Below are positions 18,001 through 21,000 of a DNA stretch of 64,000 nucleotides, in pieces. The first letter of the stretch is position 1; every line of letters begins with the position of its first letter. The stretch is from Escherichia coli (GTDB lineage: Bacteria > Pseudomonadota > Gammaproteobacteria > Enterobacterales > Enterobacteriaceae), in NCBI RefSeq assembly GCF_036507355.1, contig NZ_AP027877.1; one strand, 5' to 3'. The position numbers are program-made.

Positions 18001-21000
18001 CCGTTTCTGCATCATCACTGACGAAGCGCGTCATATCAAAATGGCGATTGTTGATAAACATGTCACTCCGCTGCTTTCTGTCAATGACTCCTCTCTGATG
18101 ATTGGTATGCCGAAGTCACTGACCGCCGCAACGGGTATGGATGCCTTAACGCACGCTATCGAAGCGTATGTTTCTATTGCCGCCACGCCGATCACTGACG
18201 CTTGTGCACTGAAAGCCGTGACCATGATTGCCGAAAACCTGCCGTTAGCCGTTGAAGATGGCAGTAATGCGAAAGCGCGTGAAGCAATGGCTTATGCCCA
18301 GTTCCTTGCCGGTATGGCGTTCAATAATGCTTCTCTGGGTTATGTTCATGCGATGGCGCACCAGCTGGGCGGTTTCTACAACCTGCCACACGGTGTATGT
18401 AACGCCGTTCTGCTGCCGCATGTTCAGGTATTCAACAGCAAAGTCGCCGCTGCACGTCTGCGTGACTGTGCCGCTGCAATGGGCGTGAACGTGACAGGTA
18501 AAAACGACGCGGAAGGTGCTGAAGCCTGCATTAACGCCATCCGTGAACTGGCGAAGAAAGTGGATATCCCGGCAGGCCTACGCGACCTGAACGTGAAAGA
18601 AGAAGATTTCGCGGTTCTGGCGACTAATGCCCTGAAAGATGCCTGTGGCTTTACTAACCCGATCCAGGCAACTCACGAAGAAATTGTGGCGATTTATCGC
18701 GCCGCAATGTAATCATCATTCCAACAACGGCTGGCAAATTGTCAGCCGCTTTTTCAACTATCTCTGTAATCCTTGCCCGTAAATTCGTGATAGCCGTCGT
18801 AAAGCTGTTACCGACTGGCGAAGATTTCGCCAGTCACGTCTACCCTTGTTATACCTCACACCGCAAGGAGACGATCATGACCAACAATCCCCCTTCAGCA
18901 CGTGTTCAGCCCGGCGAGTATGGTTTTCCTCTTAAGTTAAAAGCACGCTACGACAACTTTATCGGCGGCGAGTGGGTCGCGCCTGCCGACGGTGAGTATT
19001 ACCAGAACCTGACGCCGGTGACCGGGCAGCTGCTGTGCGAAGTGGCGTCTTCGGGCAAACGAGACATAGATCTGGCGCTGGATGCTGCGCACAAAGTGAA
19101 AGATAAATGGGCGCACACCTCGGTGCAGGATCGCGCGGCGATTCTGTTTAAGATTGCCGATCGAATGGAACAAAACCTCGAGCTGTTAGCGACAGCTGAA
19201 ACCTGGGATAACGGCAAACCCATTCGCGAAACCAGTGCTGCGGATGTACCGCTGGCGATTGACCATTTCCGCTATTTCGCCTCGTGTATTCGGGCGCAGG
19301 AAGGTGGGATCAGTGAAGTTGATAGCGAAACCGTGGCCTATCATTTCCATGAACCGTTAGGCGTGGTGGGGCAGATTATCCCGTGGAACTTCCCGCTGCT
19401 GATGGCGAGCTGGAAAATGGCTCCCGCGCTGGCGGCGGGCAACTGTGTGGTGCTGAAACCCGCACGTCTTACCCCGCTTTCTGTACTGCTGCTAATGGAA
19501 ATTGTCGGTGATTTACTGCCGCCGGGCGTGGTGAACGTGGTCAATGGCGCAGGTGGGGAAATTGGCGAATATCTGGCGACCTCGAAACGCATCGCCAAAG
19601 TGGCGTTTACCGGCTCAACGGAAGTGGGCCAACAAATTATGCAATACGCAACGCAAAACATTATTCCGGTGACGCTGGAGCTGGGCGGTAAGTCGCCAAA
19701 TATCTTCTTTGCTGATGTGATGGATGAAGAAGATGCCTTTTTCGATAAAGCGCTGGAAGGCTTTGCACTGTTTGCCTTTAACCAGGGCGAAGTTTGCACC
19801 TGTCCGAGTCGTGCCTTAGTGCAGGAGTCAATCTACGAACGCTTTATGGAACGCGCCATCCGCCGTGTCGAAAGCATTCGCAGCGGTAACCCACTCGACA
19901 GCGTGACGCAAATGGGCGCGCAGGTTTCTCACGGGCAACTGGAAACCATCCTCAACTACATTGATATCGGTAAAAAAGAGGGCGCAGACGTGCTCACTGG
20001 CGGGCGGCGCAAGCTGCTGGAAGGCGAACTGAAAGACGGCTACTACCTTGAACCGACGATTCTGTTTGGTCAGAACAATATGCGCGTGTTCCAGGAGGAG
20101 ATTTTTGGCCCGGTGCTGGCGGTGACCACCTTCAAAACGATGGAAGAAGCGCTGGAGCTGGCGAACGATACGCAATATGGCCTGGGCGCGGGCGTCTGGA
20201 GCCGCAACGGTAATCTGGCCTATAAGATGGGGCGCGGCATACAGGCTGGGCGCGTGTGGACCAACTGTTATCACGCTTACCCGGCACATGCGGCGTTTGG
20301 TGGCTACAAACAATCAGGTATCGGTCGCGAAACCCACAAGATGATGCTGGAGCATTACCAGCAAACCAAGTGCCTGCTAGTGAGCTACTCAGATAAACCG
20401 TTGGGGCTGTTCTGATGTAAGAAGCTGGTCGCATCGGGTATTAATTGCCTGATGCGACGCTTACGCGTCTTATCATGCCTACGGGGACCTGACCGTAGGC
20501 CGGATAAGACGTACACGCCGCATCCGGCATAAACAAAGCGCACGTTGTTACAATTTACGTTTTAAACCTACGTGTGCAATAACCCAGACTACGCCAACAA
20601 AAGTGCGTTTCTGGGGCGTGTTTTGCCAGGAGTTTAATCTCGCGTTTCGATGGTGAGCGGGCAAACCAGACCGTAAATCACCATTGGTATTCCGAGGACA
20701 ATCAGCAATAAACGGTAGATTATTGAAGGTTTAATACGCTTAATCTGCATTGTGGATGTTTTACGGTTTTTAATCATAAATTTGGCCAATAGTTCCATTA
20801 TTTCAATATGATAAGCCTCGACCTGTTAAAAAGCCAGGCAGCACACTTCAGGAAGTATATAAAAAACAATATGTCGTTATATAAATAAGGAAATTGCACT
20901 GCATCATGGCATTTCATAATATGCGTTAATTGTTCTTTTTTATATTCTCTGAGGGAAATATGTTCCTGGACTATTTTGCACTGGGAGTGCTTATTTTTGT

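What the first reader, a model, noticed from the sequence alone, without database searches (positions are those of the whole stretch)
20634..20750. Unannotated candidate small membrane protein ORF (38 codons, minus strand) between aldB and yiaW
An ATG-initiated ORF (MQIKRIKPSIIYRLLLIVLGIPMVIYGLVCPLTIETRD) encodes a single predicted TM helix with a positively charged N-terminus, the pattern of many E. coli small membrane proteins. It falls below the 60-aa track cut-off. No strong Shine-Dalgarno is visible, so it may be non-coding.
Basis: seen in the sequence. Interest (0 to 1): 0.3.

Follow-up and report, generated by a model that had tools for sequence, protein, structure and literature searches.

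The report
Deletion relic of a membrane-protein gene
The 38-codon ORF is real, but it is what remains of a 104-codon two-helix membrane-protein gene that lost its middle 171 bases in most E. coli and has since drifted neutrally, so it is an ordinary pseudogene remnant and not a new small protein.

Summary
The ORF is present exactly as described (window 20634-20750, minus strand). On its own it is not remarkable: 82% of shuffles of the aldB-yiaW spacer contain an ATG ORF of at least 38 codons, and it has no Shine-Dalgarno.

What gives it meaning is homology. E. whittamii, Escherichia sp. E1V33 and 28 of 5426 complete E. coli genomes carry an intact 104-aa gene at the same position, convergent with aldB. 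That gene belongs to a widespread uncharacterised family (286 clusters, no Pfam model) with two predicted long helices.

The window, K-12, O157 and about 3750 other E. coli genomes share an in-frame 171-bp deletion between imperfect 15-nt direct repeats. It removes the end of helix 1, the loop and all of helix 2, leaving 47 codons.

- **Selection:** intact alleles show pN/pS of 0.10-0.17. Deleted alleles show 0.8-1.4, and their non-synonymous divergence (0.099) equals the local synonymous rate.
- **Start codon:** It is GTA in K-12 and in intact E. coli alleles. The ancestral start is ATG 20777.
- **Annotation:** PGAP calls it a "hypothetical protein" with inconsistent starts. The curated K-12 record lists nothing there.

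Verdict: a gene relic, probably non-functional. Translation was not tested. Low interest.

The parts
20634..20777 (-). Relic coding frame: 47 codons plus TAA. It corresponds to residues 1-38 and 96-104 of the ancestral 104-aa membrane protein. ATG 20777 is the ancestral start.
   Evidence: It aligns codon for codon with intact alleles L087/L088 1504-1815(-), L007 2507-2818(-) and L006 780-1091(-). PGAP uses this start in K-12 derivatives (WP_001066080) and in intact alleles (WP_001064341). The distant homologues P0044 and P0053 begin at the equivalent Met.
20634..20750 (-). Its ATG is codon 10 of the ancestral gene.
   Evidence: Searches confirm the sequence. Codon 10 is ATG only in window, OZ197100, O157 and YL3 type alleles. 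It is GTA in K-12, 1105, W284, NCTC9112 and intact E. coli, and GTG in E. whittamii and E1V33. There is no SD (dG +0.6).
20661..20675 (-). Deletion junction: one hybrid copy of the 15-nt imperfect direct repeat TACGGYCTGGTTYGC. In intact alleles 171 bp (57 codons) lie between the two copies.
   Evidence: The two BLAST pieces of the window against intact allele L087 overlap over exactly these 15 nt. The multiple alignment shows the extra segment in E. whittamii and E1V33. 104 minus 47 is 57 codons.
20778..20798 (-). In-frame upstream extension (MELLAKF), bounded by an in-frame TAA at 20826-20828. It is probably 5' leader and not coding sequence.
   Evidence: The first codon is ATG in the window and GTG in K-12 and E1V33. 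The upstream TAA is CAA in other strains, which gives 70-78-aa ORF calls. PGAP starts differ between genomes.
20566..20637 (+). Relic of the 3' end of a hicB antitoxin gene (about 20 codons with a 12-nt internal gap). Its stop overlaps the relic ORF's stop, as in intact loci.
   Evidence: 83% identity over 122 aligned columns, with a 12-nt gap in the window, to the hicB 3' end of L087, where hicA is at 892-1077 and hicB at 1094-1504. The window ORF MCNNPDYANKSAFLGRVLPGV matches the HicB tail YVRNNPDYANRSAFLAEAARRVLPGV.
20440..20540 (.). REP/BIME palindromic elements downstream of aldB. They are context, not part of the relic.
   Evidence: Multi-copy matches in E. coli genomes to this part of the query (median 3 places per genome). 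Sub-threshold Rfam naRNA4 (REP-derived) hits at 20409-20534.
20856..20904 (.). Conserved block in the divergent promoter region between the relic and yiaW.
   Evidence: It is the only part of the spacer that also matches upstream of yiaW in Citrobacter species. It is 100% identical to K-12 while its surroundings diverge 6-9%. A similar block lies upstream of the homologue in L094. Genomic SELEX places a constitutive yiaWV promoter, with an H-NS flag, in this spacer (PMC3946193).

Best explanation
The ORF is the remnant of a real gene, and it is most likely a pseudogene with no function of its own.

**Shown: the ancestral gene.** The ancestor of Escherichia carried a 104-codon gene between yiaW and aldB, convergent with aldB. 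[quoted passage not shown] The helices come from an AlphaFold model and the motifs from the family alignments.

**Shown: the deletion.** In the lineage leading to most E. coli, a deletion between two imperfect 15-nt direct repeats (TACGGYCTGGTTYGC, encoding YGLVC and YSLVR) removed exactly 171 bp. Because 171 is a multiple of three, the frame and the original stop were kept. The result is a 47-codon ORF holding only the N-terminus, most of helix 1 and the last 9 residues.

**Inferred: the mechanism.** The deletion probably arose by replication slippage or short-homology recombination.

**Shown: loss of constraint.** Since the deletion the sequence has evolved without detectable protein-level constraint. 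These changes make the remnant look more like a clean single transmembrane helix than it does in K-12.

**Not shown: translation.** Whether a peptide is still made was not tested. The start context is poor and the region is AT-rich and reported as H-NS-bound.
For: **Intact alleles exist at the same position.**
- The intact 104-aa ORF lies at the syntenic position in E. whittamii and Escherichia sp. E1V33.
- It is also in 28 of 5426 complete E. coli genomes, annotated as WP_001064341 and WP_001064340.
- The window, K-12 and O157 align to these on both sides of a 171-bp gap flanked by the repeat.

**The long form is ancestral.**
- 103-104-aa homologues at 50-58% identity are also convergent with an aldB-type gene in other Enterobacteriaceae (P0044 in L085, P0053 in L094). 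P0049, a close relative of P0044, is from Franconibacter daqui.
- An exhaustive profile search found 286 clusters with E<=1e-3 and 76 with E<=1e-10. Most of the best 150 are about 100-125 aa and match most of the profile.

**Structure.** The AlphaFold2 model of the intact protein (82-sequence alignment, mean pLDDT 78.6) has helices 17-44 and 62-95, so the deletion removes residues 39/40-95/96.

**Selection.**
- Intact alleles give pN/pS of 0.10-0.17, for example 6 non-synonymous to 19 synonymous differences.
- Deleted alleles give window versus K-12 1.38, O157 versus K-12 0.84, and window versus O157 5 non-synonymous to 0 synonymous.
- About 12.5 non-synonymous to 5.5 synonymous polymorphisms occur among 8 deleted alleles (hand count from the codon table). 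Fisher's exact test against the intact lineages gives P=0.004.
- The relic's pN of 0.099 matches the local synonymous rate (aldB pS 0.074, yiaW pS 0.139) and is about 100 times aldB's pN of 0.0009.

**Start codon.**
- No SD precedes any candidate start.
- PGAP start choices are inconsistent.

**The gene is dispensable in Escherichia.**
- Escherichia sp. MOD1-EC7003 has an independent N-terminal deletion.
- A B2 ST131 genome lacks the whole locus.
- Rare E. coli variants carry frameshifts, stop loss or an insertion (P0038, P0046, P0028, P0029).

**Curated annotation.** The curated K-12 record has no gene there.
Against: - The 47-codon frame is still open in every deleted allele I fetched (8 of 8). 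Most predicted variants in the protein database also keep it. A short ORF at E. coli-level divergence is expected to stay open by chance, but weak constraint cannot be excluded.
- The substitution counts are small (13-18 changes), so a pN/pS of 0.75-1.4 has wide error.
- The central residues 11-26 (QIKRIKPSIIYRLLLI) are invariant at the protein level among the 8 deleted alleles.
- Even the intact Escherichia alleles have a weak, mis-spaced SD yet are clearly constrained. A poor SD is therefore not proof of non-translation.
- No expression data could be consulted. The Stringer et al. table held here is cut at about 1 Mb, and no supplements are held for Weaver et al. or Meydan et al..
Confidence: 0.85

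Rival explanations
1. The deleted allele is still a functional gene. A 47-aa (or, in the window lineage, 38-aa) single-pass inner-membrane peptide is translated and retained, and it has a residual or new role such as binding a partner of the ancestral protein.
For: - The frame is open in all 8 deleted alleles examined, and the deleted allele is in about 70% of complete E. coli genomes.
- The product has a basic N-terminus followed by a hydrophobic helix. Kyte-Doolittle scores are 2.53 in the window and 1.71 in K-12.
- Residues 11-26 are invariant among the deleted alleles.
- The window-lineage changes G27V, T30I and R39C all increase hydrophobicity.
- The divergent promoter region is retained at 94% identity to intact alleles.
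Against: - pN/pS is about 0.8-1.4, against 0.1-0.17 for intact alleles, and pN equals the neighbouring pS.
- Substitutions within the helix are radical (G to V, T to I or S, R or C at the junction), and N-terminal residues 2-5 are scrambled.
- The start is not conserved and no SD is present.
- The region is AT-rich (26-36% GC) and flagged as H-NS-bound.
- The gene is not in the curated K-12 record.
- Independent losses occurred in other lineages.
Confidence: 0.1
2. It is a chance ORF in a non-coding spacer, or a newly arisen proto-gene, with no coding ancestry.
For: ORFs of this length are expected by chance in this spacer (82% of shuffles). There is no SD, and there are no Pfam or NCBIfam hits.
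Against: Both ends of the ORF align in frame to an intact 104-aa gene under purifying selection. That gene has 286 homologous clusters.
Confidence: 0.02
3. The sequence now acts at the DNA or RNA level, for example as a spacer, an H-NS nucleation site, or a 5'/3' UTR or antisense element affecting yiaWV or aldB. On this reading the ORF is incidental.
For: The 5' part is AT-rich. An H-NS flag and a constitutive yiaWV promoter are reported in this spacer. A strongly conserved 49-nt block lies just upstream at 20856-20904.
Against: - The conserved block lies outside the ORF.
- The ORF region itself diverges 9% between the window and K-12, which is the neutral rate.
- No Rfam family matches it, even at E<=1.
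- No promoter-like or terminator-like site lies on the ORF strand.
Confidence: 0.03

Closest known systems
Intact 104-aa hypothetical membrane protein of a minority of E. coli (WP_001064341 and WP_001064340), E. whittamii and Escherichia sp. E1V33, and its uncharacterised family (P0044, P0049 from Franconibacter daqui, P0053 and others)
   Same: It has the same locus (between yiaW and aldB, convergent with aldB), the same frame, the same start and the same stop. The relic's 47 codons are 85-96% identical to residues 1-38 and 96-104 of these proteins.
   Different: The window lacks the 57 central codons: the end of helix 1, the FGYD..WN loop and the whole second helix with its GLWxYS motif. Unlike the intact genes, it shows no purifying selection.
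Validated E. coli small inner-membrane proteins of 50 aa or fewer with one transmembrane helix
   Same: The length (38-47 aa), one hydrophobic helix and a basic N-terminus match the class.
   Different: It has no conserved start and no SD, no amino-acid conservation beyond what DNA relatedness gives, and its origin is truncation of a larger gene. No translation evidence was obtained.
Annotated K-12 gene remnants such as ysaC and ysaD (pseudogenes a few kb away in NC_000913.3)
   Same: It is a short leftover of a formerly longer gene in the same chromosomal neighbourhood.
   Different: The aldB-yiaW relic is not annotated as a pseudogene in NC_000913.3. Because its deletion is in frame, gene callers report it as an intact "hypothetical protein".
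Pfam DUF3566 (PF12089). UniRef labels the Franconibacter homologue 'DUF3566 domain-containing protein'.
   Same: It is a small, helical membrane domain of unknown function.
   Different: No family member reaches the Pfam threshold. The best hit is P0054 at 11.8 bits against a cut-off of 22.2, and P0049 has no DUF3566 hit at E<=1.

Membership tests
WP_001064341-like 104-aa two-helix membrane protein family (no Pfam or NCBIfam model) | Sequence homology of the N-terminal region (basic K/R-I-K-P motif plus helix 1) and of the C-terminal RPLxIxxx tail | tested here: met
   The window's 47 codons align in frame at 85% identity to the intact E. coli allele (96% for K-12). tblastn E-values are 1e-17 to 1e-21.
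WP_001064341-like 104-aa two-helix membrane protein family (no Pfam or NCBIfam model) | Full-length architecture: loop motif FG.D..WN, second long helix, and the near-invariant G59, G88, L89 and W90 | tested here: not met
   Residues 39/40-95/96 are deleted in the window. The invariant columns of the 82-sequence alignment (G59, G88, L89, W90) and helix 62-95 fall inside the deletion.
WP_001064341-like 104-aa two-helix membrane protein family (no Pfam or NCBIfam model) | Synteny in Enterobacteriaceae: convergent with, and immediately downstream of, aldB | tested here: met
   The window ORF is convergent with aldB. The same holds in L007, L006, L087 and L088, in L085 and in L094.
WP_001064341-like 104-aa two-helix membrane protein family (no Pfam or NCBIfam model) | Purifying selection on the protein sequence | tested here: not met
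   Intact alleles give pN/pS of 0.10-0.17 and deleted alleles 0.84-1.38. Fisher P=0.004.
Functional small membrane proteins (50 aa or fewer, single transmembrane helix) of E. coli | Short ORF encoding one hydrophobic helix | tested here: met
   The ORF is 38-47 aa with a Kyte-Doolittle peak of 2.53 over 19 residues.
Functional small membrane proteins (50 aa or fewer, single transmembrane helix) of E. coli | Conserved start codon with a usable ribosome-binding context | tested here: not met
Anti-SD dG is +0.6 for ATG 20750, and -3.3 but mis-spaced for ATG 20777.
Functional small membrane proteins (50 aa or fewer, single transmembrane helix) of E. coli | Conservation of the reading frame with an excess of synonymous change across relatives | tested here: not met
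   The frame is open within E. coli but pN is about equal to pS. It is disrupted or absent in Escherichia sp. MOD1-EC7003, Citrobacter and B2 E. coli.
Functional small membrane proteins (50 aa or fewer, single transmembrane helix) of E. coli | Direct evidence of translation (initiation-site profiling, tagging) | not testable with these tools
   The supplementary tables of the relevant Ribo-seq studies were not held or were cut before 3.75 Mb.
Pfam DUF3566 (PF12089) | Score at or above the Pfam gathering threshold (22.2 bits) | tested here: not met
   There is no hit for the window peptide or the intact Escherichia protein. The best family member reaches 11.8 bits, and there is no DUF3566 hit at E<=0.01 among the 82 members.

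The most novel reading that the evidence does not exclude
After losing its second helix, the truncated 47-aa allele, which is now the majority allele in E. coli, is still expressed as a single-pass membrane peptide and has gained a function of its own. On this reading the window-lineage changes G27V, T30I and R39C, plus the new internal ATG, reflect adaptive tuning and not drift. That would be a natural example of a small membrane protein born by in-frame truncation of a larger one.
Probability: 0.07. Interest if true: 0.45.

Novelty: new member of a known kind. Interest (0 to 1): 0.15.

Why it matters
**Annotation hygiene.** Thousands of RefSeq E. coli genomes carry a "hypothetical protein" of 47-67 aa here, with inconsistent starts. 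It should be treated as an internally deleted pseudogene. The curated K-12 record could list it, together with the adjacent hicB fragment, as remnants.

**A caution for small-protein hunts.** An ORF can have an open frame, a basic N-terminus and a convincing transmembrane helix because it is a fragment of a real membrane protein. Comparison with near relatives exposes this quickly.

**A family worth a look.** The intact gene belongs to a widespread but uncharacterised family of about 100-aa two-helix proteins with no Pfam model. E. coli offers natural intact and deleted alleles for studying it.

Tried and rejected
- **Rfam scan** of 20300-21100 at E<=1: only sub-threshold REP-derived naRNA4 hits in the REP elements and spurious miRNA hits. 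Nothing over the ORF.
- **Promoter and terminator scan:** no promoter-like site on the ORF strand. One site lies on the + strand facing yiaW, and the count is below the shuffle expectation.
- **Pfam and NCBIfam** on the window peptide, the intact protein and 82 family members: nothing above threshold.
- **Foldseek of the AF2 model against PDB:** no match with E<1. The afdb50 library was not available.
- **Ribo-seq literature:**
  - Stringer et al. 2021: the held supplementary table is cut at about 1 Mb, so the absence of coordinate 3754611 says nothing.
  - Weaver et al. 2019 and Meydan et al. 2019 preprints: no supplements are held.
  - The mBio DOI for Weaver et al. is not held.
- **Papers mentioning yiaW:** the IS1 insertions described lie in the yiaW coding region and are not relevant to the spacer.
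- **Genomic context of more distant family members** (L095-L097): the contigs are short, the neighbours are unrelated and there is no functional hint.
- **De novo or chance-ORF reading:** rejected because of the in-frame homology to intact alleles.
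Full report
**1. The observation.**
The window is E. coli. Gene order around the finding is yiaY (17561-18712, +), aldB (18877-20415, +), REP elements, the ORF on the minus strand, then yiaW (20960-21283, +), yiaV and yiaU.

The frame stays open further upstream, to ATG 20798 (54 aa), with in-frame TTG 20789 and ATG 20777.

An ORF of this size is not unusual here. Of the dinucleotide-preserving shuffles of the 544-nt spacer, 82% contain an ATG ORF of at least 38 codons. No candidate start has a Shine-Dalgarno. The controls give -8.5 for aldB and -6.1 for yiaW.

**2. Existing annotation.**
PGAP annotates a "hypothetical protein" on this frame in many RefSeq E. coli genomes, but with different starts:
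- 47 aa in a K-12 derivative and in strains 1105 and YL3.
- 51 aa in the genome closest to the window (OZ197100, 99.8% identical).
- 54 aa in NCTC9112.
- 67 aa in W284.
- Nothing in O157:H7 strain BB24-1.

The curated MG1655 record NC_000913.3 has no gene or pseudogene between aldB and yiaW. That table does display pseudogenes such as ysaC and ysaD.

**3. What it is.**
All protein-database homologues of the 54-aa peptide that carry a source name are from E. coli, and they vary in length and N-terminus.

I used yiaW as an anchor to fetch the locus from other species. The ORF region is absent upstream of yiaW in Citrobacter and the other genera fetched. Only a 49-nt promoter-proximal block (window 20856-20904) is conserved there.

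In E. whittamii and Escherichia sp. E1V33 the same frame is longer. A 104-codon ORF, counted from the Met equivalent to window ATG 20777, contains an extra 171 bp in the middle. The extra segment is bounded by two imperfect direct repeats, TACGGYCTGGTTTGC and TACAGCCTGGTYCGC, which encode YGLVC and YSLVR. The window carries one hybrid copy at 20661-20675.

Of 5426 complete E. coli genomes:
- 28 carry the intact form (WP_001064341 and WP_001064340).
- About 3750 carry the deleted form (3783 cover at least 80% of the window's spacer, which includes the intact ones).
- About 1600 have no match to the region upstream of yiaW.

A B2 ST131 genome (O25:H4) has a GH127 pseudogene and an MFS transporter after aldB instead, with no trace of the relic.

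**4. The long form is ancestral and is a real gene.**
- A 103-aa homologue at 50% identity (P0044) and a 104-aa homologue at 58% identity (P0053) lie convergent with an aldB-type aldehyde dehydrogenase gene in other Enterobacteriaceae. P0049, which is 87% identical to P0044, is from Franconibacter daqui.
- P0044 has a strong SD, AGGAG 6 nt before the ATG.
- An exhaustive profile search of 1.84 billion representative proteins found 286 clusters at E<=1e-3 and 76 at E<=1e-10. Most of the best 150 are about 100-125 aa and match most of the profile, roughly positions 8-102.
- No Pfam or NCBIfam model reaches threshold on any member tested.
- AlphaFold2 with an 82-sequence alignment (mean pLDDT 78.6) predicts helices at residues 17-44 and 62-95 and a small hairpin at 51-56. 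Foldseek against PDB gave nothing meaningful.
- The deletion therefore removes the end of helix 1, the conserved FGYD..WN loop and all of helix 2, including the near-invariant G59, G88, L89 and W90.

**5. Selection.**
I used Nei-Gojobori counts.

| Comparison | Non-syn : syn differences | pN/pS |
|---|---|---|
| Intact alleles against each other (e.g. E. coli vs E. whittamii) | 6 : 19 | 0.10-0.17 |
| Window vs K-12, shared 47 codons | 10.5 : 2.5 | 1.38 |
| O157 vs K-12 | 6.5 : 2.5 | 0.84 |
| Window vs O157 | 5 : 0 | not defined |

- Among 8 deleted alleles I counted by hand about 12.5 non-synonymous and 5.5 synonymous polymorphisms. That gives pN/pS near 0.75 on a 106:35 site ratio.
- The contrast with the intact lineages is significant (Fisher P=0.004).
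- Window versus K-12, the relic's pN (0.099) equals the synonymous rate of its neighbours (aldB 0.074, yiaW 0.139). It is about 100 times aldB's pN of 0.0009.

Replacements in the relic include G27V, T30I or T30S, R or C at the junction codon, a scrambled N-terminus (NNPS to IKNR) and D47E. The Kyte-Doolittle peak is 2.53 in the window but only 1.71 in K-12.

**6.
Codon 10 of the ancestral gene varies between lineages:
- GTG in E. whittamii and E1V33.
- GTA, which is not a start codon, in intact E. coli alleles, K-12, 1105, W284 and NCTC9112.
- ATG only in the window, OZ197100, O157 and YL3 group.

So the 38-codon ATG-initiated ORF exists in only part of the species.

**7. Other losses.**
- Escherichia sp. 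MOD1-EC7003 lost roughly the first 60 codons of the gene and kept the C-terminal 42.
- Rare E. coli variants carry frameshifts, a stop loss or a one-codon insertion (P0038, P0046, P0028, P0029).
- The flanking sequence 20566-20637 (+) is the leftover 3' end of a hicB antitoxin gene. Several intact-allele strains and E1V33 carry a complete hicAB pair there.

The aldB-yiaW spacer of the window therefore holds REP elements plus two gene remnants.

**8. Expression context.**
- The 5' part of the relic and the divergent promoter region are 26-36% GC.
- A genomic SELEX study lists a constitutive sigma-70 promoter for yiaWV in the yiaW-aldB spacer, with an H-NS flag (PMC3946193).
- The consensus scan finds no promoter-like site on the ORF strand.
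- I could not consult ribosome-profiling tables for this coordinate. Translation of the relic remains untested.

**9. Conclusion.**
It is close to certain that the ORF descends from the 104-aa gene by an in-frame 171-bp deletion. That the remnant is now a non-functional pseudogene is the best-supported reading. My confidence in the combined explanation is about 0.85.

That reading rests on substitution patterns with small counts, poor start signals and repeated independent loss, not on expression data. The main rival, at about 0.1, is that a 47-aa single-pass peptide is still made and does something.

The finding is ordinary, a gene relic that gene callers mistake for a small protein, and I score it low. 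The uncharacterised parent family is a modest by-product.

Noticed in passing
window 20566-20637 (+): This is the leftover 3' end of a hicB antitoxin gene: about 20 codons (MCNNPDYANKSAFLGRVLPGV) with a 12-nt gap relative to intact hicB. Complete hicA-hicB pairs occupy this position in some E. coli (L087 892-1504) and in Escherichia sp. E1V33 (hicB at L006 370-780). The window lineage therefore lost a toxin-antitoxin module here.
   Followed up: partly
window about 22591, within yiaU (22349-23395, -): yiaU, the LysR-type regulator next to yiaV, carries a 1-nt deletion in a T run (TGCTTTCAG to TGCTTCAG) relative to K-12. This shifts the frame at about codon 269 of 324. The near-identical genome OZ197100 is annotated 'frameshifted'.
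   Followed up: partly
window 20856-20904: A 49-nt block 56-104 nt upstream of yiaW is 100% identical to K-12 while the surrounding spacer diverges 6-9%. It is the only part of the spacer also conserved upstream of yiaW in Citrobacter species, and a similar block precedes the homologue in L094. It is likely the yiaWV promoter or operator, possibly shared with the divergent membrane-protein gene.
   Followed up: partly
window 20661-20663 (junction codon); L001, L089-L092, L003: Deleted alleles come in two junction types: CGC (Arg) in K-12, 1105 and YL3, and TGC (Cys) in the window, O157, W284 and NCTC9112. The other polymorphisms are distributed in a mosaic across these types. This fits either one deletion followed by mutation or recombination, or two independent deletions with different crossover points in the repeat. 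It is unresolved.
   Followed up: no
L005 2741-2869 (Escherichia sp. MOD1-EC7003): A different inactivation of the same gene: roughly the first 60 codons are replaced or deleted, and only the C-terminal 42 codons (MAAGLLAGLSVSAFLTVVIGTIACPGLWLYSLVRPLTIETRD) remain.
   Followed up: partly
L099 (E. coli O25:H4, B2) 2917-5419: In this B2 genome aldB is followed by a frameshifted GH127 glycoside hydrolase gene and an MFS transporter instead of yiaW and yiaV. About 1600 of 5426 complete genomes have no match to the region upstream of yiaW.
   Followed up: partly
window 20798-20917 (-): A second short ORF (39 aa, MKCHDAVQFPYLYNDILFFIYFLKC...) lies directly upstream and overlaps the yiaW promoter region. 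In a few strains a 1-nt indel fuses it in frame to the relic, giving 90-95-aa ORF predictions (for example P0017). It looks like a chance ORF in AT-rich DNA.
   Followed up: no
proteins P0044, P0049, P0053-P0195; loci L085, L094: The parent family is a widespread, apparently undescribed group of about 100-125-aa two-helix membrane proteins. It has 286 clusters at E<=1e-3, conserved motifs FG.D..WN and GLW.YS..RPL, and no Pfam or NCBIfam model. In several Enterobacteriaceae it lies convergent with aldB.
   Followed up: partly
window 20440-20540: REP/BIME palindromes lie downstream of aldB and give weak, sub-threshold matches to the Rfam family naRNA4 (34.8 bits against a gathering score of 59.5).
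   Followed up: no
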